The translations under genes and the position numbers were made by a program. The notes under the pieces were generated by a model. It worked only from the letters and a program-made list of their open reading frames with translations, was not told the origin of the DNA and did no database searches. This document shows, piece by piece, positions 38,445-64,000 of a stretch of 64,000 nt of DNA. Within the stretch, counting starts at the first letter, position 1. The number at the start of each line of letters is the position of its first letter. Source of the stretch: Zootoca vivipara (taxonomy: Eukaryota); assembly GCF_963506605.1 (NCBI RefSeq), contig NC_083279.1, positions 70,618,001 through 70,682,000 on the forward strand. Reading direction: 5' to 3'.

Positions 38445-38450
38445 AATAAA
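38445..38450 (+). terminator. Candidate TIPRL poly(A) signal
   Basis: AATAAA ~575 nt after the TIPRL stop codon. Confidence 0.4.
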
Positions 38451-41023: not shown

Positions 41024-41444
41024 TGTGAGGGACAGGGGATACCGGGAGGTCCCTCCCATCTTAAGTACCAGCTCATCGCCAAGCGCTGGGGAAAGCAGGG
41101 AGAGTTCCGCCTCCAGCGGAGACTCAGGAAGTGGTGTCCGAGGCTCAGGCAAGGTAGCGGAGCCCATGCCCAAGGTGGGACAGGAAGGGGGGAGCAAGGG
41201 GGGAAGGCTGATCCCGCCGACCCCGGAATTGCGCAAGAAACGTCGTGGGAAGAGGTTGGGTCTTCCCAAGCTTCTTTGCTGGAGGAAAACGCGCCAACCT
41301 CCATTCGGAGGTACTGACACCTGACTGACAACATGTATATAGATCGCTCCGAGCACTGTAAACAATCAGCACTTAATAAAAGCCTAAAAGGACTATGCTG
41401 TGAGGAGTCGTTACTCTAGAGTAGCCGCATCAGCATCTCTGACA
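41024..41444 (+). mobile_element. Solo LTR (421 bp) of a subfamily related to the Gypsy element at 58311
   Basis: TGTGAG...TGACA ends; perfect 5-bp TSD GAATG (41019-41023 and 41445-41449); colinear with LTR 58311-58738; AATAAA at ~41375. Confidence 0.92.
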
Positions 41445-42973: not shown

Positions 42974-53833
<10,860 letters not shown>

Positions 53834-53922
53834 CAGAGACTCAAACAACTTGGTAAGTATTGGAAAAAAAATATTGTGGTAAAATAGTTATATCCCCAGA
53901 TTTATGCGCGTTATAACACTGT

Positions 53923-53940
53923 GACACCAGATGGCGCTGT
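53923..53940 (+). promoter_or_regulatory. CTCF-like motif
   Basis: CACCAGATGGCGCTG matches the CTCF core; a second GGCAGATGGCGCCA lies at ~53276-53289. Confidence 0.5.
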
Positions 53941-54469
53941 GGAAGCCCATTTTTCGCCCACGGGATTTCCCTGTATGAAGTTTACAATGCATTTAACTGT
54001 ATCTCTTCTTTGATGTGTCTAGATCCAGCCTGTTAGTACATAAACTTGAGCTTCAGTCTTAAATCTATGAACTCACTGGAGCTTGTTTCTGGATAAAGTG
54101 AGGCAGCTTAATGATGATATTTGTTGAGATGCCCCAATTTTTTGCTCTTTGCTGATGTCATACTGTAGAAAGAGAAATTAATTGTGAGATGGTCTTTTAG
54201 GTGCCCATATTGGGTTGTATCCTATGCTGCTGTTCCACTTGTACAACTTCCCCCTTCTGCAGCCCACTGTACACCTTATTACCCATTGTTATGAGTAGGC
54301 ATATATTTTGCCAATTTTAAAAGGTTTTTCTACATATTCACTCCAGTTTGGAGATGTGCATAAACAGAACCCACAGTTTTGCTAGGACTGCAGATAAAGA
54401 CTGGTCTGTGATGTAGAGGAGGCATAAGCACTTCTCTCTATGTGCAGAAGCCTCTGTATACCTATGAAG

Positions 54470-54791
54470 CGGGGGTCAGCAAACCTTTTCAGCAGCGGGG
54501 CCGGTCCACTGTCCCTCAGACCTTGTGGGGGGCTGGACTATATTTTGAGGAAAAAAATGAACAAATTTCTATGCCCCACAAATAACCTAGAGATACATTT
54601 TAAATAAAAGCACAGATTCTGCTCATGTAAAAACACCAGGCAGGCCCCACAAATAACCCAGAGATGCATTTTAAATAAAAGGACACATTCTACTCATGTA
54701 AAAACACGCTGATTCTCGAACCACCCACGGGCTGGATTTAGCAGGCGATTGGGCTGGATCTGGCCCCCGGGCCTTAGTTTGTCTACCCATG
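54470..54791. mobile_element. hAT MITE with internal ~70-bp tandem duplication
   Basis: Ends homologous to 36098-36668; TSD ctatgaag / ctataaag. Confidence 0.75.
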
Positions 54792-57700
54792 CTATAAAGT
54801 GTCTTATTGTAATTTAACTTGTGCTTTGGGAAAGGAAAACAATATACAACCTGACTGATGTAAAGTTGTAAATGTTGTAAAGGCTTTTGACTGAGAGCTG
54901 TCATCTTTATTTCAAAATATAATTCATTGCTTTTGTGCAGGCCAGCAAGATAAGCACCATCTCCTTACACTGAAATGTGACCTTGAGGACTAGAAGGTTT
55001 GCAAGACATATGGCATTTGCATCTGCACACACCTTCCCAGGGGCAAGGCTATTAATCTTGCTAAGTGAACCTGTGAATCACTGGACAAAGCTACAACGTA
55101 TTCTCCCAAGGGTAATGAGTTTTGTGATAAGAAGCCCAAAGAGCAACAAAACATTCCTTTCACTCGCTTAGCTAAGCTGTTGTGTGCATTTGGTGTGATA
55201 TTGTCAACTTCAGATTTTGTTGTTTTGCTGGTGAAAATGATATTATGGTAATTGCAAAGCAGGTGGGATTTAAATTTACTAGTCACACATTCTTAATTTA
55301 CAGGGTCCAAAGAACAGCTTACACATTGGCTATTGTGGCCTTATAGCAAAGAGATTGATTTTCAGAGATCATTTCTTGGTTCCCAAAGTACTTTTTGTCT
55401 CCTACAATCGTGTAAGGGAACTTAGAGGAGCTGCCTTCTAATTGAACAGCAAGCATGATTCCTTATTGTAATATAACCAAGACATTGATTCATTGTCCAA
55501 CCAGCAAGAGAAGCAGCATGAGCGAATATACTAGTGGGAATCATGAAAGCAAGCAAGTGCCCTTCCATTTCTGCAAGCAGTTTACTGTCTACTTTTTATG
55601 GTCTCTTTAAGACCGGGATCTGAAGTAACTTCAAGACCTCTGCCTTAGTGCTAACATTGCCTCATGAATTATATTGCCACTCTTGCTGCTTCGGTTTTGC
55701 TAGATTCCCACCCACATCCATCTAAAAATATGACTTTGTGCAGCTCTCCCAACTGTGGAGAGGAGGAACATCTCATATTTTTCCAACTCCCTTTCCCCCA
55801 TTTAATCTTGCTGTTTTGATTTCTGTTTACATTGTCTGCCTAGCTGATGATTGCTTTCAGTTGGAGGGACTTGTGTTCATGACATTCTGGCTTCCTAATA
55901 GGACATTATCATGTAATGATTGGAGCAGACACCTAGACATTGCTGCATTCCTCTTGAACTGGTGCCATTATATATATATTGTCTCCATGTAAGAAGGAAT
56001 GAAGGGTATTCTCCCCTCCAAAGAAATACTGTACAGTTATTCGAGAGTAATTTGTCCTTTTTTAATGCTATCCTAAAGCTTGTGTCTTAGTATTGTCAAT
56101 AGAGCATTTTTGGAAACCTTGAAGCTGCAGGTGTTTGTTTGCAAAAGAAAAGAGCCATTGAACAAATTCTTTGCTGTAGTGGCTTTTGGGATTGACCGTC
56201 TTAATCTAGTATACCTCCTATTCTGCTTACTCCCATCATTGGGCAGATACTAGCACTTGTGTATCTGAGCACAGAAATTTCCTTGAACAACTCTGGAGTA
56301 CCAGAATTCACCCTAATCTTGTCTAAAACTCTCTCTATAGCTTTTTCTTAGGATATTATTTAGTATTTATAACCTGGTTTTTTAGGAAGCTTAGTTGTAC
56401 TGTGCAGCTTTCCCAAGCAAGCACATTTAGAGATTTGCAAAATTAGGTATTTATGAGGATTTTATTATTATTTTTAGATTCTAGAACTGCAGCCCTGATG
56501 TCAGTAAGCTATAAAAATGAAAGTCTGTGAAATTTCTTGGTTTGAGTAGTCCACCAGTTTACAATGCGCAAGTGGAAAACTGCAGCCTTGATTTATAAGT
56601 CATATAGGCATAGGGCGTTAATGAATGGGCACAGGGTTGCCAGTCAGACCCTAAGACAGCTATTGTTGCACAGAAGGCAGAATTTCATCTGGTGTGGCTT
56701 TTCTCATCACACCACTGCAGTAAGCTAAGGCGCCAGGTAGAATTTTCTTAAAAGAGACAGGGATCCTTCAGCATCTGGGTTTGGTAGCTCAATACTGGAG
56801 AAATACTTGCACAGGGAAGTCATTGCTGAGAAGTGGCAGGCAACAACTCTGCCCTTCATCTACTTTTCTCAGAGTTTAGAGGGTCTGGTTTTTCTGTACA
56901 GGGGAGTCATAAATCCTATTGGGTCTTTTTAAAATACCAGCTCTGATCTTCTTACCAGCTTCCTTTTTTAGGCTGGAGACAGACAGTAGGTCTGTTCCCC
57001 CTACCCCCCAAAGTGTAGAAGGCAATGTGCACATCACAAGCTGGAACCTTTGTTTCACATTTTCCCCACAGTCGCCTCTGGTAAAATGGTGCTTTTGCAT
57101 TCTTTAAAATTCTCAAAACTTCCTTGATTTAGAGGGTCTTCACCCCCAATTGCAGATGCTGCAGAGCATCCAATGGTAATGTAGGGTTTTTCCCAGATGT
57201 TAAGTGCCATGCTAGTGTACTGCTGGAACTCACAAATCTTAAAAGAAGAACTTGAGCAGTTTTGTCAAGTTTCCTTGCTGTAGTAATAGGTTTATTTTAT
57301 GGAGAGAAAGTTCCTTTTTCAGAAATCCATTTATTAAATTTGGATTATTAGTGCACTCGGTTTCAGTATGGAAAGGGGTAGGATCAGTAGTTGTATATTT
57401 AGCACATTGAGACACATAAGCCCTCAATGCTGCATCTCTTCTAAAGCAGCTGCTCTTAAAATATTGCAATCTTTAATTATGGAATGCATTTCAGATATTC
57501 GTACAGATACTTTCTAGTTGTAATTTTTCTACTTAAAACCTGTCTTTGAGTACCTTTCTAATATTGACACTGCTGCTGCATTTATATTAAAGATTTGGTT
57601 TTTTATTCAAATGTTAAAATCAATGTTATGATTTGAATATTTGTCATGATTTGAATATATTTTTTAACTAATTCAGTCCGATTTTAAGTCACTTGATAAC

Positions 57701-58285
57701 ATAGGACTTAGTTAAAAATATTCAAATCATAACATTGATTTTTATTTACTGGGATCTTTGCTAAATGTGGATTATGGTGGTAAGTCTTTGTACATTTTTA
57801 TTTCCCGGGACCTTAAAATCACCTGTATACTAAATTTTAAATTTCTGCTATAGTTACCCTTTGTGTTCTGGCATAAAGCAGAACCATCTTGTCCTAGATG
57901 TATATGGTCACTTTCTCAAATTAATCAGTAGCTTGTTCACACTTGTTACAACACTATTTTAGATGAACCCAGTCTTGGCCTTAACTACAAATATGTCAGT
58001 GTCAGAGCTTAAGGCCTTTAGCTACTAAATATAAGGTGGCTTCTTTAAGATGTACTTTTTTGGAAAACAAAAAAGTGCCTACCCGCACCATGCAATATGA
58101 CTGCATTAATGGAGACTTTTGTAATAAGGCTTTGATTTTTTAAAAAAGCTTGAATGGATGTTCCATTTTTGTACACTTTTCTTGTTGGCTTTTGTATTGT
58201 ACCTTTTGTATATGCTGGTCTTTTTTTCTGCCTTAAGAAATGAAATACTACTTTGGACATACTCTTACTGCACTATCTCTTCTGT

Positions 58286-58291
58286 AATAAA
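58286..58291 (+). terminator. Probable SFT2D2 poly(A) signal
   Basis: AATAAA preceded by a TGTA/T-rich cluster (58168-58210) and followed by CA dinucleotides at 58302-58308; ends a 3.3-kb repeat-poor, UTR-like tract. Confidence 0.55.
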
Positions 58292-58310
58292 GCTAGTTTC
58301 TCAACACATG

Positions 58311-58738
58311 TGTCACAGTGGCCGGAGTGGACTACTTCAGAGTAACGACGCTACGCAGCTCTGCATTTTATTCTTTTATTGGTGCTGCGTATTTACAGTG
58401 CTCAAGTCATTGCTATTTACACGGATCGATGTTGTCAGTCGGTTTCAGAACCTCCTAATGGCTTTTGGCGCGTCTTTCTCCAACACAAAAGCTTTGGCAG
58501 ACCCATCCTCTTGCCCCTCCTCTTCCTGCGTAATTCTGGAGTTGGAGGGATGGGTCTTCCCCCCTTGCTTGCCCCTTCCTGTCCCACCTGGGACCCTGGC
58601 TCCTCTACCTTGCCTGAGCCTCGGACACGACTTCCTGCTTCCCCACTGGAATCGGAACTCTCCCTGCTTTCCCCTTTGCTCGGGGACGGGCTTGAACTCA
58701 GGAGGGGAGGGACTTCGCGATATCCCCTGTCCCTCACA
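58311..58738 (-). repeat. 3' LTR (428 bp)
   Basis: Minus-strand TGTGAG...GTGACA; adjacent PPT GGGAGGGGGGTGGA at 58752-58739; tandem AATAAA on the minus strand at ~58367-58380. Confidence 0.93.
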
Positions 58739-61700
58739 TCCACCCCCCTCCCAAGCTCTCCTTCACCCCTCCCCAGGCCCCCCCCATGTGTCGGTGACGA
58801 CTGGAAGCCTAAGAACTCAGTGCTCTCCGAGCCCGTTGGTGTGAATACCTCCCCCCAGTCCTGCGAGCCCCCCCCTTCCGCCTGGGCGGACGGGAATCCC
58901 AAAAAGTCCGTGGCGTCAGAGCTGGTGGGGTTAAAAACGTTCTGCCAATCTGCTCCTTCCTCTGACTGGGTGGATCTCGGTGACACCCATACCTCATCCT
59001 CTGGTTCCTCAAACTCCGCTTCCCAGCGCCATGGTGAGCTGCTCTCCCGTGCCTCCTCCTCCTCCCCCTCCCTTTCCATGTGCCAGGGCTTGGGTCTGTG
59101 GGGAAAGAGGGCGTGAAATTCTTCCACCAAGAATTCCTCCTGTATCTGAGTGGCTGGGACCCATTCATTCTGGGACGGTGGAGCATCCTCCCATGCCATG
59201 AGGTACTCCAGTCCCCCCACCCCCCACCTTGAATCCAGGATGGCCGTGGCCTCATTGAGTTGCTCCCTGCCTTCCCTCTCCCCCCCTCCCTCGGGGGTTT
59301 GTTCGCTGTCTCGGAGCCTGCTGCTTTCCCTGTACGGCGACAGCAGCGATCTATGAAACACTGGATGCACCCTCATGTCCTCTGGCAGTGCCAGCCTGTA
59401 TGCCACCGGGTTTACCTGTTGCGTGACCGTGAAGGGGCCCAGCCTTTTGGGTGCCAGCTTTTTGCACCTCCCTCTGGTGGGAAGGCCCTCCGAGGACAAC
59501 CACACCTTGTCCCCCACCCTGATGACCTCCCCTTGTCGCCTGTGGCGATCTGCCCCCTTTTTGTACGCTTCCTTGGCCCTCTCCAAGTGTTCTCTGAGCT
59601 GCTGGTGCACCGTCTCCAGTTCCTCTGCCCAATCCTCAGCCTGTGGGCCCTCCTCCTCCTCCTCCTCCCTCTCCCTCTCTGGGAAAGATCTGAGGTCGCG
59701 CCCGTAATTGGCCTTAAAGGGCGACACCCCTGTGGAGACGTGCACCGCATTGTTGTAGGCAAATTCTGCCAGTGGCAGGCGATCCACCCAGTCCGTTTGC
59801 CTCTGGCTGACGTAACATCTCAGGTACTGCTGCAGAATGGCGTTGACCCGCTCCGCCTGTCCATTGGTCTGCGGGTGCCGAGCCGTCGACAAGCTGACCT
59901 CCACCTGCAGGAGGTTCATGAGCCGCCGCCAGAACCTGGAAACAAATTGGCGGCCACGATCCGAAATAACCCTTAAAGGTAATCCATGCAGTCTGAAAAT
60001 GTGATCAACAAACAGTTTGGCTGTCTCTTCTGCCGAGACTGCCCTGGCACACGGTATAAAGTGACACATTTTGGACATAAGGTCCACCACCACCAACACT
60101 GCAGTCTTACCCCTGGACGAAGGCAGATCTGTGATGAAGTCCATGGACACCACTTCCCACGGCCTGTGTGGTGTGGCTAAGGGCTCCAGCAACCCTGGTG
60201 GCGCTGCTCTGACCACCTTCGCCCGCTGGCAGGTGGTACAGCCCCTTACATAGTCTCGAACATCTTCCCGCACCCCTGGCCACCAGAAGTGTCTCATGAC
60301 TAGGTGAGCGGTTTTGTCCCTTCCAAAATGCCCCGCTGTAGGGTTGTCGTGCATCTGCTTGAGGACCGTACGTCGAAGCTGGGTGGTGGGTAGGTACAGC
60401 GCACCCTTGTAGAAAAGCAGCCCTCTGCGTTCTGCAAAGTCTTTTGCCTGCTCCCTCCCCCCTCTCAGTTCTCTGAAGATGCGGTTGGCAAATTCATCCG
60501 CTGCCGTCAGTGCTGTGAGTTCTGCCTCGCTCACCACAGCTGCTCCGCAGGACCATGCCGACGGGGGGAAAATGTGCCTTGGGGCTGGTGGCGCCTCCTC
60601 CTCCATGTACTCTGGCTTGCGGGAGAGGGCATCCGCCCTGACGTTCTGCTCCCCCGGGATGTAGTGGATGGAGAAGTTGAAGTTCGAGAAGAACTCTGCC
60701 CACCGTATCTGCCGCTGGTTGAGCACCCTGGCAGTTCTCCAGAACTCCAGGTTCTTGTGGTCTGTGCACACCTGGATGGGGTGCTTCGCGCCCACCAGGA
60801 AGTGTCGCCAGTGCTGGAACGCAGCGTAGATCGCAAGAAGTTCCCTATCAAACACTGTGTAGTTGCGTTCAGGCTGTGTCAGCTTCCTGGAGAAGAAGGC
60901 ACAGGGTCTCCACTCCCTGTTGGCGTCCAGTTGCAACAAAATTGCGCCCACAGCTTTTTCAGAAGCATCTGTCTCAATGCGTAGGGGCGCGTCCTGCACC
61001 ACATGGAACAGGTTTTGGTCTGAGGCGAACACTCTCTTGAGGCTTTCGAACGCTGCTTGCGCCTCTGGTGTCCACTTGAACTTCTGCTTGCCTCTCAGGC
61101 AGTCCGTGATGGGAGCCGTAACGCGAGAGAAGTTCTTGATGAACTTCCTGTAGAAGTTAGCGAAGCCTAGTAGGCGTTGGGCATCTTTGCGCGTCCTGGG
61201 GCTGTGCCAGTCCAGGATGGCCTGCACCTTGTCCTTGTCCATCGCCAGCCCCTTGTCTGACAGCTTGTAGCCCAGGAAGTCCACCTCTTTGGTGTGAAAC
61301 TTGCACTTCTCCAGCTTCACATACAGGTGGTGCTCCTTCAGGCGTTGCAACACCTCTCTGACATCTTTCACATGCTGCACTGGGTCATTCGAGTAGATAA
61401 GGATGTCATCTAGGAAGACCAAGCATTTCCTGAAGAGGAGGGACCCCAGGACGTGGTGCATGAAGGCCTGGAAGCATGCTGAGCCCCCTTGCAAACCGAA
61501 GGGCATCACCAGATATTCAAAAGAGCCCAGAGGCGTGAACATCGTGGTTTTCCATTCATCTCCTTCCCGGATCCTGATCAAGTTGTACGCCCCCCTTAGG
61601 TCCAGCTTGGTGAAAATCTTGCCCCTGCGTGCCGCTGTCAGGAGATCATCCACTCTGGGCATGGGGAAAGCCACGGGCTCTGTCACCGAATTCAGCCGTC

Positions 61701-62562
61701 TAAAGTCCACCACAAGACGGCGCTGTTGCGTGTCTTTCTTGTCCACCCAGAAGACCGGGCTGCCCCCTGCTGCCTTGCTTTCCCTTATGAACCCCCGCTT
61801 GAGGTTCTTGTCGATGAAAGCGCGCAGATCCTCCAGCTCCTGGTCTGACATGGCGTACAGCTTGGCTGGGGGTATCGTCGCCCCTGGCACCAGGTTGATC
61901 TGGCAGTCAAAAGGCCTGTGCGGGGGTAGGTGGTCGGACTCCGCTTCGCTGAAGACCTCCTGCAGGTCCCAGTACTGCTTGGGTATTGCCTCACCCCCTT
62001 TGATATGCATGGTGGCCACCGTGGCTATCGGAGGCCCCTCCCCTGGTTGGTGCTGCATGCAATGTTCCAGACAAAAGTCTGACCCAAACGTGATGCACCT
62101 CTGGTGCCAACTGATGGAGGGGTCGTGGCGCGCCAGCCAGCTCATGCCCAAGACGATGGGGGGGTCTGAGATGGTGGTGACGTTGAACGCCAGTGTCTCT
62201 GAGTGCCTTCCCACCGTCATTCTCATGGGGGGGGTTTGATGTGTGATGGCCCCTCCCAGCAGTTCCCTGCCGTCAATGGTTGCTACGTGCAGAGGAAAAT
62301 CCAACTGCAAAAGCTGGATTTGGTGCTCTTCTGCAAAGCTTCTCGAGAAGAAGTTGGCGGACGCCCCACTGTCAATTAAGGCGAGGACCGTCAGGGGATA
62401 GCCATTTGGGAGCGTTAGCGTCACTTCTAGAACCACTCCTGCTCTGGGAGGGGTGGGCTGGCTCTGCACCTCTCTGTGCGGGTGGGCGGGCTGGGGCTGT
62501 TGTCTGCTGACTGTGCCTGGCTGCTGCCCCTTGTCTCCTGCAGCCAGGCTTTCCCGTTTCCC
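58435..62562 (-). CDS. pol: Pol (protease-RT-RNase H-integrase-chromodomain plus long C-terminal tail), reached by -1 frameshift
   Basis: ALIDSGA (protease), LDLRGAY / MPFGL / FLDD (RT), TDAS...RELLA...TDHKNL...ADALSR (RNase H), HHCC, D-D-E, GPF motif, chromodomain; no stop over >1340 codons. Confidence 0.95.
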   Translation of the reverse strand, partial: GKRESLAAGDKGQQPGTVSRQQPQPAHPHREVQSQPTPPRAGVVLEVTLTLPNGYPLTVLALIDSGASANFFSRSFAEEHQIQLLQLDFPLHVATIDGRELLGGAITHQTPPMRMTVGRHSETLAFNVTTISDPPIVLGMSWLARHDPSISWHQRCITFGSDFCLEHCMQHQPGEGPPIATVATMHIKGGEAIPKQYWDLQEVFSEAESDHLPPHRPFDCQINLVPGATIPPAKLYAMSDQELEDLRAFIDKNLKRGFIRESKAAGGSPVFWVDKKDTQQRRLVVDFRRLNSVTEPVAFPMPRVDDLLTAARRGKIFTKLDLRGAYNLIRIREGDEWKTTMFTPLGSFEYLVMPFGLQGGSACFQAFMHHVLGSLLFRKCLVFLDDILIYSNDPVQHVKDVREVLQRLKEHHLYVKLEKCKFHTKEVDFLGYKLSDKGLAMDKDKVQAILDWHSPRTRKDAQRLLGFANFYRKFIKNFSRVTAPITDCLRGKQKFKWTPEAQAAFESLKRVFASDQNLFHVVQDAPLRIETDASEKAVGAILLQLDANREWRPCAFFSRKLTQPERNYTVFDRELLAIYAAFQHWRHFLVGAKHPIQVCTDHKNLEFWRTARVLNQRQIRWAEFFSNFNFSIHYIPGEQNVRADALSRKPEYMEEEAPPAPRHIFPPSAWSCGAAVVSEAELTALTAADEFANRIFRELRGGREQAKDFAERRGLLFYKGALYLPTTQLRRTVLKQMHDNPTAGHFGRDKTAHLVMRHFWWPGVREDVRDYVRGCTTCQRAKVVRAAPPGLLEPLATPHRPWEVVSMDFITDLPSSRGKTAVLVVVDLMSKMCHFIPCARAVSAEETAKLFVDHIFRLHGLPLRVISDRGRQFVSRFWRRLMNLLQVEVSLSTARHPQTNGQAERVNAILQQYLRCYVSQRQTDWVDRLPLAEFAYNNAVHVSTGVSPFKANYGRDLRSFPEREREEEEEEGPQAEDWAEELETVHQQLREHLERAKEAYKKGADRHRRQGEVIRVGDKVWLSSEGLPTRGRCKKLAPKRLGPFTVTQQVNPVAYRLALPEDMRVHPVFHRSLLSPYRESSRLRDSEQTPEGGGEREGREQLNEATAILDSRWGVGGLEYLMAWEDAPPSQNEWVPATQIQEEFLVEEFHALFPHRPKPWHMEREGEEEEARESSSPWRWEAEFEEPEDEVWVSPRSTQSEEGADWQNVFNPTSSDATDFLGFPSAQAEGGGSQDWGEVFTPTGSESTEFLGFQSSPTHGGGLGRGEGELGRGVDVRDRGYREVPPLLSSSPSPSKGESRESSDSSGEAGSRVRGSGKVEEPGSQVGQEGASKGGRPIPPTPELRRKRRGKRMGLPKLLCWRKTRQKPLGGSETD

Positions 62563-63653
62563 TGCTGTGGTGCTGCGTCAGTGGGGGAGGGCACCACCGT
62601 TCCCGCCTTTCCTTGCCACTCCCTGCGATGTGGGCAGTCTCTGACGAGATGCTGGGGTGAGTTGCAGAGAAAGCAATTCCCGCCCCTTCCCTCCTTGCGT
62701 CTTGGCGCCGCTGGGGTTTGAAAAGCCCGCGCGCGCGCGCTATCAATCTGCATGGGCTCCTGGTCCTGGCTGGCTCCAGGCGTGGCCTGAAAGGGTTGTT
62801 GAGGGAGTGGCTTCTCCTGCGACCGTGGGAACCAAGCCCGCTTTGCGCGCGTCGCTTGCTTGTCGTTCCACCGGGATTCCTGCCTCACCCCCACCGCCAG
62901 AGCTGCTTTGCTCAGCTGATCCATAGTACTGGGCTTTGGACCTCTCGAGAGTTCATCCTTCACCTCCTCGCTCAAACCCAAGTAAAACGCAGCTTGCATG
63001 GGAGGCGAATCCAAAACCCACCCCAGTCTGTGCACCAGCATGGTGAATTTCGCCCAATATGCGCGAACTGTCATATTTCCTTGGCGTAAATTATGCAGTT
63101 CCTCCTTAGTCTGGTCCAAATGACTATCGGACGAATACATCGTCCTCAAACCTTCTAGAAATTGTTGGACATTTTTCATGCAAGGATTCTTGGTTGCGAT
63201 TAATGGTCTTAGCCACTCCCTGGCTGCTCCGGTGAGATGTTCCACAATAAACGCTACTCTGTGCTCATCATCGGGGAACTCATTCTGGTGCAGCTCAAGA
63301 GCATACACGATCTCAGTCTCAAAGCCCTGAAACTCCTTCGGGTCTCCATTGAACTTGCTTACAAGGGTCCCTGCTCTCCTTCCTGGCAGCACTTGGACTT
63401 GGGGAGCCCCTCCCGCCTTGTTTTTCTCTGCATCCAGCTTGTTTTGGAGGTCTACCGCCACCGCCCTTAAATGCTGCTCTTTTTCCTGGAGCTCTCTCAC
63501 CTGTTCCGCAAGTTGTAGCCGGTCGTCCTGGACCTTCTTAGTCTCCTCTTTAGCTGCCTTCAATTCTCCCTGCGCCTGCAGCGACAGCTGTTGCAGTTCT
63601 AGCTGGGCTTGCTCAGCGATCTGCCGCCACTTCTCCGCCTCGGACACGCTCAT
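62427..63653 (-). CDS. gag: Gag (coiled coil, capsid, CCHC zinc knuckle), 408 aa
   Basis: ATG at 63653 (MSVSEAEKW); LRQGNMTVRAY capsid motif; CFLCNSPQHLVRDC knuckle. Confidence 0.93.
   Translation of the reverse strand: MSVSEAEKWRQIAEQAQLELQQLSLQAQGELKAAKEETKKVQDDRLQLAEQVRELQEKEQHLRAVAVDLQNKLDAEKNKAGGAPQVQVLPGRRAGTLVSKFNGDPKEFQGFETEIVYALELHQNEFPDDEHRVAFIVEHLTGAAREWLRPLIATKNPCMKNVQQFLEGLRTMYSSDSHLDQTKEELHNLRQGNMTVRAYWAKFTMLVHRLGWVLDSPPMQAAFYLGLSEEVKDELSRGPKPSTMDQLSKAALAVGVRQESRWNDKQATRAKRAWFPRSQEKPLPQQPFQATPGASQDQEPMQIDSARARAFQTPAAPRRKEGRGGNCFLCNSPQHLVRDCPHRREWQGKAGTVVPSPTDAAPQQGNGKAWLQETRGSSQAQSADNSPSPPTRTERCRASPPLPEQEWF
62493..62562 (-). promoter_or_regulatory. Programmed -1 ribosomal frameshift signal
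   Basis: G_GGA_AAC at 62562-62556 in the gag frame; 6-nt spacer; 10-bp stem GCCTGGCTGC/GCAGCCAGGC; loop GGGGC can pair with downstream GCCCC; the -1 frame opens into pol. Confidence 0.88.
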
Positions 63654-63682
63654 CCCGGCAACTCCGAAGTAGCCCAAAAATG

Positions 63683-63693
63683 ATTAGGAGGTT
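63683..63693 (-). promoter_or_regulatory. Primer binding site, self-priming type
   Basis: AACCTCCTAAT 2 nt after the 5' LTR; no TGG start; exact complement of LTR 63844-63834. Confidence 0.75.
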
Positions 63694-63695
63694 GC

Positions 63696-64000
63696 TGTCA
63701 CAGTGGCCGGAGTGGACTACTTCAGAGTAACGACGCTACGCAGCTCTGCATTTTATTCTTTTATTGGTGCTGCGTATTTACAGTGCTCAAGTCATTGCTA
63801 TTTACACGGATCGATGTTGTCAGTCGGTTTCAGAACCTCCTAATGGCTTTTGGCGCGTCTTTCTCCAACACAAAAGCTTTGGCAGACCCATCCTCTTGCC
63901 CCTCCTCTTCCTGCGTAATTCTGGAGTTGGAGGGATGGGTCTTCCCCCCTTGCTTGCCCCTTCCTGTCCCACCTGGGACCCTGGCTCCTCTACCTTGCCT
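63696..64000 (-). repeat. 5' LTR (partial)
   Basis: The 305 visible nt appear identical to 58311-58615. Confidence 0.95.

What the first reader, a model, noticed from the sequence alone, without database searches (positions are those of the whole stretch)
58286..58320. Young retrotransposon inserted almost exactly at the predicted SFT2D2 cleavage/poly(A) site
Seen: the LTR edge (58311) lies 20 nt after an AATAAA (58286-58291) that has an upstream TGTA cluster. Candidate CA cleavage sites (58302-58308) abut or overlap the putative TSD ACATG (58306-58310). The element is antisense, so its own poly(A) signals (~58367-58380) face the host's within ~90 nt. Inference: the native downstream GU-rich element was displaced, which could alter SFT2D2 3'-end formation, read-through, or antisense RNA. 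The sister solo LTR (41024) also lies just downstream of a gene (TIPRL). This fits termination-zone targeting (PNUTS has a TND), but n=2 is anecdotal.
Basis: partly seen in the sequence, partly recalled or inferred. Interest (0 to 1): 0.7.

Follow-up and report, generated by a model that had tools for sequence, protein, structure and literature searches.

The report
Chance retrotransposon hit at gene end
A very young jumping gene, one of about 1,150 near-identical copies in a lizard genome, sits a few bases after the likely end of the SFT2D2 messenger RNA and is absent from another sequenced sample, but its sister copies show no special preference for gene ends, so this is most likely a chance hit that would change the RNA end only mildly.

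Summary
AATAAA (58286-91), upstream TGTA, identical 428-bp LTRs and the ACATG duplication at 64124-28 are confirmed. RNA-like contigs of three studies stop at 58219, 58227 and 58304, while a genome-sized run crosses the empty site, so the insertion is polymorphic and lies about 2-8 nt after the likely cleavage site. The targeting idea fails. The family has about 1,145 copies. AATAAA lies 10-35 nt before an LTR end 75-76 times, against 34 at 110-135 nt, but the control hexamer AAAAAT behaves alike (90 vs 42; p=0.89): the element prefers AT-rich flanks. Of 28 AATAAA-adjacent sites inspected only this one looks like a real poly(A) site, and one such hit is expected by chance (estimated 28-81%). 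The downstream element is only partly displaced: the LTR's TGT restores UGUGU; a U5 tract and a second AATAAA move 5.8 kb away. The solo LTR is from an older subfamily and not at a cleavage site. The element is a Tf1/sushi-type chromovirus. Its integrase tail carries two conserved FxGF motifs resembling LEDGF/HRP2-binding motifs; binding is untested and would point to gene bodies rather than PNUTS.

The parts
53794..53852 (+). SFT2D2 exon 8 with stop codon (TAA ends 53833) and a splice donor 19 nt after it
   Evidence: eight GT-AG exons give a 160-aa frame; exon 4 hits Pfam Got1/Sft2
53853..54940 (+). intron in the SFT2D2 3' UTR
   Evidence: GT..AG joint in X21 (3 reads), X22 (9 reads) and an X1 contig; ends
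54941..58304 (+). last, non-coding exon of SFT2D2 (3.4 kb); 3' end inferred
   Evidence: one X1 contig 54940-58219; X12 to 58227, X17 to 58304
58193..58286 (+). U-rich upstream element with TGTA at 58193, 58198, 58207, 58283
58286..58291 (+). AATAAA, likely distal poly(A) signal of SFT2D2
   Evidence: contig ends
58302..58308 (+). candidate CA cleavage sites; 58302-58304 favoured weakly
   Evidence: X17 contig aligned to 58304 with 2 further letters unaligned and not shown
58306..58310 (.). 5-bp target-site duplication ACATG (second copy 64124-64128, outside the window)
58311..58738 (-). 3' LTR, 428 bp, identical to the 5' LTR; its first three bases on + (TGT) rebuild the host UGUGU
58367..58380 (-). 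two AATAAA of the LTR, facing the host signal
58449..58459 (-). 11-nt LTR stretch complementary to the primer-binding site (predicted self-primer; same in the 5' LTR at 63834-63844)
58739..58760 (-). polypurine tract
58804..58860 (-). second FxGF motif of the integrase tail (short hydrophobic stretch, S/T/acidic linker, FxGF)
58894..58950 (-). first FxGF motif of the integrase tail
59113..59250 (-). chromodomain of the integrase
   Evidence: Pfam PF00385, residues 1110-1155
58435..62577 (-). pol frame, 1380 aa: protease, RT, RNase H, integrase, Tf2-type SH3, chromodomain, tail
62427..63683 (-). gag frame, 418 aa stop to stop
63246..63251 (+). AATAAA inside the element on the host strand, a possible back-up signal for read-through
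63683..63693 (-). primer-binding site without the tRNA-type TGG start
63696..64000 (-). 5' LTR (runs on to 64123)
41024..41444 (+). solo LTR of an older sister subfamily, duplication GAATG, between TIPRL and SFT2D2

Best explanation
One copy of a very young, roughly 1,150-copy chromodomain Ty3/Gypsy family sits 19 nt after the likely distal SFT2D2 poly(A) signal, most likely by chance helped by the family's general preference for AT-rich flanks, and it would leave most of the cleavage signal in place. Shown: the structure, the 5-bp duplication, the empty allele in another run, a family-wide target pattern (G/C at both ends of the duplication, A/T three bases outside it in 98% of flanks, AT-rich to about 40 nt), and no AATAAA-specific excess. 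Inferred: cleavage near 58302-58304; the filled allele keeps TGTA, AATAAA, CA and UGUGU, loses the U5 tract at +16 to +20 and the second AATAAA, and gains a U-rich stretch at about +60 to +90 from the LTR. The likely outcome is cleavage at the same place with somewhat lower efficiency, any read-through meeting AATAAA at 63246 and 64144 before TBX19.
For: Copy number: 2172 LTR-start matches minus 1027 internal ones = about 1145. AATAAA 10-35 nt before an LTR end: 75 and 76; at 110-135 nt: 34. Control AAAAAT: 90 and 42; Fisher p=0.89. TTTATT 48. 26 of the 151 near hits lie in one 146-bp satellite by my reading of the two listings. In 170 flanks of 85 sampled insertions every class of AT-only hexamer is 1.9-3.5 times enriched and AATAAA 1.6 times (6 vs 3.8 expected). 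Gap lengths spread over 10-35 nt with no single peak. 27 other AATAAA-adjacent sites match random AATAAA for TGTA, U content and skew; only this site passes (1 of 28). Flank GC, CpG and strand skew of 82 insertions equal those of 120 random points; PAS-like signals within 1 kb 9 of 82 vs 10 of 120, p=0.63. Expected hits within 10 nt of a used site 0.33-1.67 under assumed gene numbers. Empty allele: X15 contig leaves the window at 58313 into the downstream flank. Filled vs empty sequence.
Against: AT-matched expectation is 47-56 AATAAA per end against 59-66 non-satellite hits, a small residual, although AAAAAT shows a larger one (90 vs 49-61). This site scores at the 13th percentile of the family's core target pattern, so local sequence does not explain it well. 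The kilobase tests have no gene annotation behind them and cannot exclude a two- to threefold bias (strictest setting 5 of 82 vs 3 of 120, p=0.27). The 100 sampled copies come from C1 and the first 33 Mb of C2 only. Selection could have removed copies at gene ends. The cleavage site is not mapped: no poly(A) tail was displayed, and raw reads X21-X23 fall from depth 14-47 to about 2 at 57850-57860, 25 nt after an ACTAAA, so a more proximal end may carry much of the RNA. No run is known to come from a carrier.
Confidence: 0.78

Rival explanations
1. The integrase tail's FxGF motifs bind the TND of LEDGF or HRP2 and tilt integration towards H3K36me3-marked gene bodies, whose 3' parts include this site; base-pair closeness to the cleavage site is still chance.
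For: Two tandem motifs with the described TIM layout (helix, 8-16-residue acidic S/T linker, FxGF; PMC9987994 section 6), found in 95 of 100 young copies, in sister-subfamily loci L167, L170, L179 and partly L180, and once in a Podarcis Gypsy protein 56% identical over the matched part. An HRP2 gene exon is present in the genome.
Against: Strand-skew agreement between the two flanks, a proxy for transcribed DNA, is no higher at insertions (r=0.15, n=82) than at random points (r=0.28, n=120). Copies also lie in telomeric repeat, satellite and another copy of the element. The linker is less acidic than the description leads one to expect (my reading).
Confidence: 0.12
2. The family is steered to cleavage and termination zones, for instance through the PNUTS TND, and this copy is a typical product.
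For: One true-looking poly(A) site hit; AATAAA is 2.2 times more common at 10-35 nt than at 110-135 nt; PNUTS binds TIMs of IWS1, SPT6, PAF1 and MYC (PMC9987994); the solo LTR lies 345 nt after an AATAAA downstream of TIPRL.
Against: The same excess for a non-signal hexamer; 27 of 28 inspected neighbours are not poly(A)-like; no kilobase excess; FxGF is described as needed for LEDGF/HRP2; the solo LTR is from another subfamily.
Confidence: 0.05
3. The hexamer at 58286 is not the working site: most SFT2D2 RNA ends near 57860, or at the second AATAAA of the empty allele, so the element is simply near the gene end, or inside the last 45 nt of the UTR.
For: Raw-read depth drops at about 57850-57860 with read starts piled at 57847-57860 in X21 and X22, after ACTAAA at 57829 and before a GU-rich stretch. 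A second AATAAA with its own TGTA lies 15 nt after the site.
Against: Contigs of X1, X5, X12 and X17 run past 57860; similar pile-ups occur at 57062-57067 with no hexamer, so the library is uneven; none of the four RNA-like contig sets crosses 58313.
Confidence: 0.15

Closest known systems
TE-associated poly(A) sites, type 3 of Lee, Ji and Tian 2008 (PMC2553571; abstract and section 9 read)
   Same: A transposon lies within 40 nt of a poly(A) site and supplies its downstream region; about 8% of human sites are TE-associated by that rule.
   Different: Here the element is full-length, antisense, has identical LTRs and is polymorphic, so both alleles exist; most LTR cases in that paper contain the whole site.
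Tf1/sushi-group chromoviruses (Ty3/Gypsy with chromodomain and self-priming; PMC4600332, passages)
   Same: gag, then protease-RT-RNase H-integrase-chromodomain; 5-bp duplication; TG...CA LTRs; 11-nt self-primer match; no env frame seen.
   Different: A 225-residue tail after the chromodomain with two FxGF motifs; about 1,145 near-identical copies; no tree was built.
LEDGF/HRP2 TND-interacting motifs and lentiviral integrase tethering (PMC9987994; passages and section 6)
   Same: Motif layout of hydrophobic stretch, S/T/acidic linker and FxGF on an integrase, the kind of protein that uses LEDGF in lentiviruses.
   Different: Binding untested; no gene-body bias detected in a weak test; the review names lentiviral integrases only and does not contain the word transposon.
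Human SFT2D2-TBX19 cis-spliced read-through RNA (PMC11672250, passages)
   Same: Same gene order; the lizard gene also has a splice donor at the end of exon 8, and TBX19 begins about 5.2 kb after the poly(A) site on the empty allele.
   Different: No read-through RNA was looked for or seen here; the human chimera needs no insertion.

Membership tests
Ty3/Gypsy chromovirus, Tf1/sushi group | pol order protease-RT-RNase H-integrase | tested here: met
   Pfam
Ty3/Gypsy chromovirus, Tf1/sushi group | chromodomain at the integrase C-terminus | tested here: met
   PF00385, 27.2 bits, cut-off 25.1
Ty3/Gypsy chromovirus, Tf1/sushi group | self-priming: primer-binding site complementary to the transcript 5' end | tested here: met
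   11-nt match, 2 nt after the LTR; transcript start itself not mapped
Ty3/Gypsy chromovirus, Tf1/sushi group | TG...CA LTRs and 5-bp target duplication | tested here: met
   85 of 98 sampled copies with both ends have an exact 5-bp duplication
Ty3/Gypsy chromovirus, Tf1/sushi group | RT phylogeny with sushi-ichi and Tf1 | not tested
   no reference sequences fetched, no tree
TE-associated poly(A) site (type 3) | TE begins within 40 nt after a used cleavage site | tested here: inconclusive
   distance 2-8 nt if the site is 58302-58308; use rests on contig ends and context, no poly(A) tail shown
TE-associated poly(A) site (type 3) | site is still used on the allele that carries the TE | not testable with these tools
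   no run known to be from a carrier
Poly(A)-site- or termination-targeted integration | family-wide excess of insertions 10-35 nt after AATAAA beyond composition | tested here: not met
Poly(A)-site- or termination-targeted integration | excess within kilobases after gene ends | tested here: inconclusive
   proxy only: 9 of 82 vs 10 of 120; no annotation available
TND-interacting motif (LEDGF/HRP2 type) | short helix, 8-16-residue acidic S/T linker, FxGF | tested here: inconclusive
   FxGF and linker present twice and conserved; helix and linker charge judged by eye against the text; no PDB sequence match
TND-interacting motif (LEDGF/HRP2 type) | direct binding to a TND | not testable with these tools
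   needs an in vitro assay

The most novel reading that the evidence does not exclude
This lizard chromovirus has evolved two tandem mimics of the FxGF motif that host proteins use to bind LEDGF/HRP2, reaching the lentiviral tethering factor by another route, and so carries two guidance modules (chromodomain for heterochromatin and satellite, FxGF tail for the 3' parts of active genes). The SFT2D2 copy would then be one of a minority of gene-end hits that survive selection, and its two alleles a natural test of how a poly(A) site tolerates loss of its downstream half. I found no such report in four searches.
Probability: 0.2. Interest if true: 0.7.

Novelty: new member of a known kind. Interest (0 to 1): 0.3.

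Why it matters
As a targeting rule it does not hold, so the finding is one polymorphic example of a known process: transposons replacing the downstream half of a poly(A) site. Its use is practical: both alleles exist, so the effect on SFT2D2 3'-end formation and on read-through towards TBX19 can be measured in heterozygotes. The wider interest lies in the family: about 1,145 near-identical copies show an ongoing or very recent burst in a vertebrate, enough to map integration preference from one genome, and its integrase tail carries conserved FxGF motifs that would, if they bind LEDGF/HRP2, be a new case of host-factor mimicry by a retrotransposon.

Tried and rejected
Complex prediction of a lacertid HRP2 TND (P0006 461-547) with the second FxGF motif: 'no answer', score 0.01, alignment not used, peptides untested by that tool; not used either way. 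AAAAAT search at the LTR start (826 matches) was swamped by an AAAAAT inside the element (91 of 100 listed) and was replaced by the other end. The run search listed no holder on record as RNA; X1, X5, X12 are guessed RNA, X15 and X17 have no recorded kind and I infer DNA and RNA from contig volume. Raw reads X21-X23 (about 6 in 100 read) give depth near 1 in the last 250 nt and the loose-end table was filled by a repeat at 54470-54890 (123 rows not shown), so no poly(A) tail could be seen. PDB sequence search with the tail: one chance match, E 0.85. Homologue search with the tail region found 1 protein among 1221 candidates. 'Facing poly(A) signals' rejected as evidence: fixed by LTR anatomy. 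Rows dropped: 2 of 100 copies without a left LTR in the region and 13 without exact duplication; L138, L140, L144 (satellite, nested, telomere); 2 duplicate rows of 30. Literature searches were seen as listings only; none reported poly(A)-site-targeted LTR integration. Look-ups of earlier findings near this place and by words gave nothing. Supplements were not read; Figure 2D of PMC9987994 (the TIM alignment) is a figure and was not visible.

Full report
OBSERVATION. The window is C4:70618001-70682000 of a 1.44-Gb genome; the nearest named proteins come from lacertid lizards. SFT2D2 has eight GT-AG coding exons from 42974 to a stop at 53833 (Pfam Got1/Sft2 on exon 4). AATAAA stands at 58286-58291 with TGTA at 58193, 58198, 58207 and 58283. 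A 5,813-bp element starts at 58311 on the minus strand; its 428-bp LTRs are identical and ACATG flanks both ends, the second copy at 64124-64128. New: 15 nt after the second ACATG is another AATAAA (64144), so the empty allele has two hexamers 40 nt apart with the insertion between them.

IS IT THE GENE END? Likely. A 3'-UTR intron (53853-54940) is spliced in raw reads and a contig, and one contig of run X1 covers 54940-58219 without a difference. X12 (another species) stops at 58227, X5 at 58130, and X17 at 58304 with two unaligned letters that the tool does not show. These runs are guessed or unlabelled RNA, and contig ends are a weak hint. The upstream context is rare: 0.5% of 629 random AATAAA have as much TGTA, U and sense skew by the rule. 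Against this, raw reads of X21-X23 fall from depth 14-47 to about 2 near 57850-57860, after an ACTAAA, though pile-ups without any hexamer show that the library is uneven. No poly(A) tail was displayed.

POLYMORPHISM. A contig of X15 (906 million letters, inferred DNA) matches 57400-58313 without a difference and then continues into the downstream flank. The empty allele therefore exists under the same species label.

WHAT THE ELEMENT IS. gag and pol with protease, RT, RNase H, integrase, Tf2-type SH3 and chromodomain; a primer-binding site without TGG that is complementary over 11 nt to a stretch inside the LTR, the self-priming mark of the Tf1/sushi group (PMC4600332, passages). The LTR start occurs 2172 times, 1027 of them behind internal sequence, giving about 1,145 insertions. 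Of the first 100 internal junctions in genome order (C1 and part of C2), 98 had both ends, 85 an exact 5-bp duplication, 83 identical LTRs and 73 of 100 an uninterrupted pol frame.

TARGETING, BASE SCALE. AATAAA lies 10-35 nt before an LTR end 75 times at one end and 76 at the other, against 34 at 110-135 nt. This 2.2-fold excess is not specific: AAAAAT gives 90 and 42 (Fisher p=0.89), TTTATT 48, and in 170 flanks all AT-only hexamer classes are up 1.9-3.5 times, AATAAA 1.6 times. The target has G/C at both ends of the duplication, A/T three bases outside in 98% of flanks, and AT-rich shoulders. Matching random DNA for this raises the expectation from 28 to 47-56 per end. By my count of the listings 26 of the 151 hits are in a 146-bp satellite. 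Gaps spread over the whole range. Of the first 30 matches (28 distinct), 27 look like random AATAAA and only this one like a poly(A) site. With 20-25 thousand genes assumed, one or two sites each, 0.33-1.67 copies are expected within 10 nt of a site. One hit is what chance gives.

TARGETING, KILOBASE SCALE. Without an annotation only proxies were possible. GC, CpG and strand skew around 82 insertions match 120 random points; poly(A)-like signals within 1 kb occur at 9 of 82 and 10 of 120 (p=0.63; other settings p=0.27-0.53). A two- to threefold bias is not excluded. The solo LTR at 41024-41444 is 80% identical to the young LTR and 95-98% to its own sisters; it lies 3.15 kb after the TIPRL stop, 345 nt after the nearest AATAAA and 1.5 kb before the SFT2D2 ATG. 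It is no second case of a cleavage-site hit.

EFFECT ON THE 3' END (inferred). After 58304 both alleles read alike for nine bases, because the LTR begins with TGT as the host does; UGUGU is kept. The filled allele has 1 U in the next ten bases against 6, loses the second AATAAA, and has 5-7 U per ten bases at +61 to +90. From general knowledge of cleavage signals (recalled), hexamer, upstream TGTA and a GU element are usually enough, so I expect the same site at somewhat lower efficiency. Read-through would meet AATAAA at 63246 and 64144. TBX19 begins about 5.2 kb after the element; in man SFT2D2 exon 8 can splice to TBX19 by read-through (PMC11672250, passages), which makes that junction the sensitive read-out. 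The facing LTR signals are 81-89 nt away in any antisense insertion at such a place and add no evidence.

THE TND IDEA. The integrase tail has two tandem motifs ending in FxGF, found in 95 of 100 young copies, in sister loci and once in a distant Podarcis protein. The review PMC9987994 (passages and section 6) describes FxGF as essential for LEDGF and HRP2 partners, which read H3K36me3 in gene bodies; PNUTS binds TIMs of IWS1, SPT6, PAF1 and MYC. So the motif, if it works, points to gene bodies rather than termination zones, and the skew proxy saw no such bias. Four searches found no paper on such motifs in a retrotransposon (the one hit, bioRxiv 10.1101/624023, concerns JIL-1, passages). This is the one lead here that may be new.

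COMPARISON AND VERDICT. This locus is a young, polymorphic example. Observation confirmed; targeting not supported; effect unmeasured and likely mild. Interest 0.3.

Noticed in passing
window 58804-58950 (-): Two tandem FxGF motifs after the chromodomain, present in 95 of 100 young copies, in sister-subfamily loci and once in a distant Podarcis Gypsy protein; layout like LEDGF/HRP2-binding motifs.
   Followed up: partly
whole genome; Burst of about 1,145 copies; 83 of 98 sampled have identical LTRs and 73 of 100 an uninterrupted pol frame.
   Followed up: partly
L138, L139, L009, L028, L045, L046: A 146-bp satellite (at least 64,607 copies of one exact 26-mer) holds 26 of the 151 AATAAA-adjacent junctions, often at the same few positions; possibly enriched, as a chromodomain would predict, but array duplication could inflate it.
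   Followed up: partly
window 53853-54940: SFT2D2 has an intron in its 3' UTR, donor 19 nt after the stop; it matches the 'first 8 exons' junction of the human SFT2D2-TBX19 chimera.
   Followed up: partly
L031, about 69,320 in window numbering: TBX19 starts 5.2 kb after the element's 5' LTR; the LTR could act on this gene on the filled allele.
   Followed up: no
L002, L004, L019, L023, L027, L073, L122, L127, L149 and others: 13 of 98 sampled copies lack an exact 5-bp duplication, and several of these begin their outer flank with TCC at the 5'-LTR end, the same bases that border the LTR inside the element; possibly unprocessed ends.
   Followed up: no
L144 and L140: One copy sits in telomeric repeat at the end of C1 and one inside another copy of the family.
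   Followed up: no
G000 C2:70.28-70.33 Mb: Three copies within about 45 kb; local clustering not tested.
   Followed up: no
window 57829-57867: ACTAAA with upstream TGTA and a downstream GU-rich stretch where raw-read depth drops; possible proximal poly(A) site.
   Followed up: partly
window 41375: The solo LTR is in sense to TIPRL and offers an AATAAA; TIPRL's own candidates are at 38445, 40378 and 40673.
   Followed up: no
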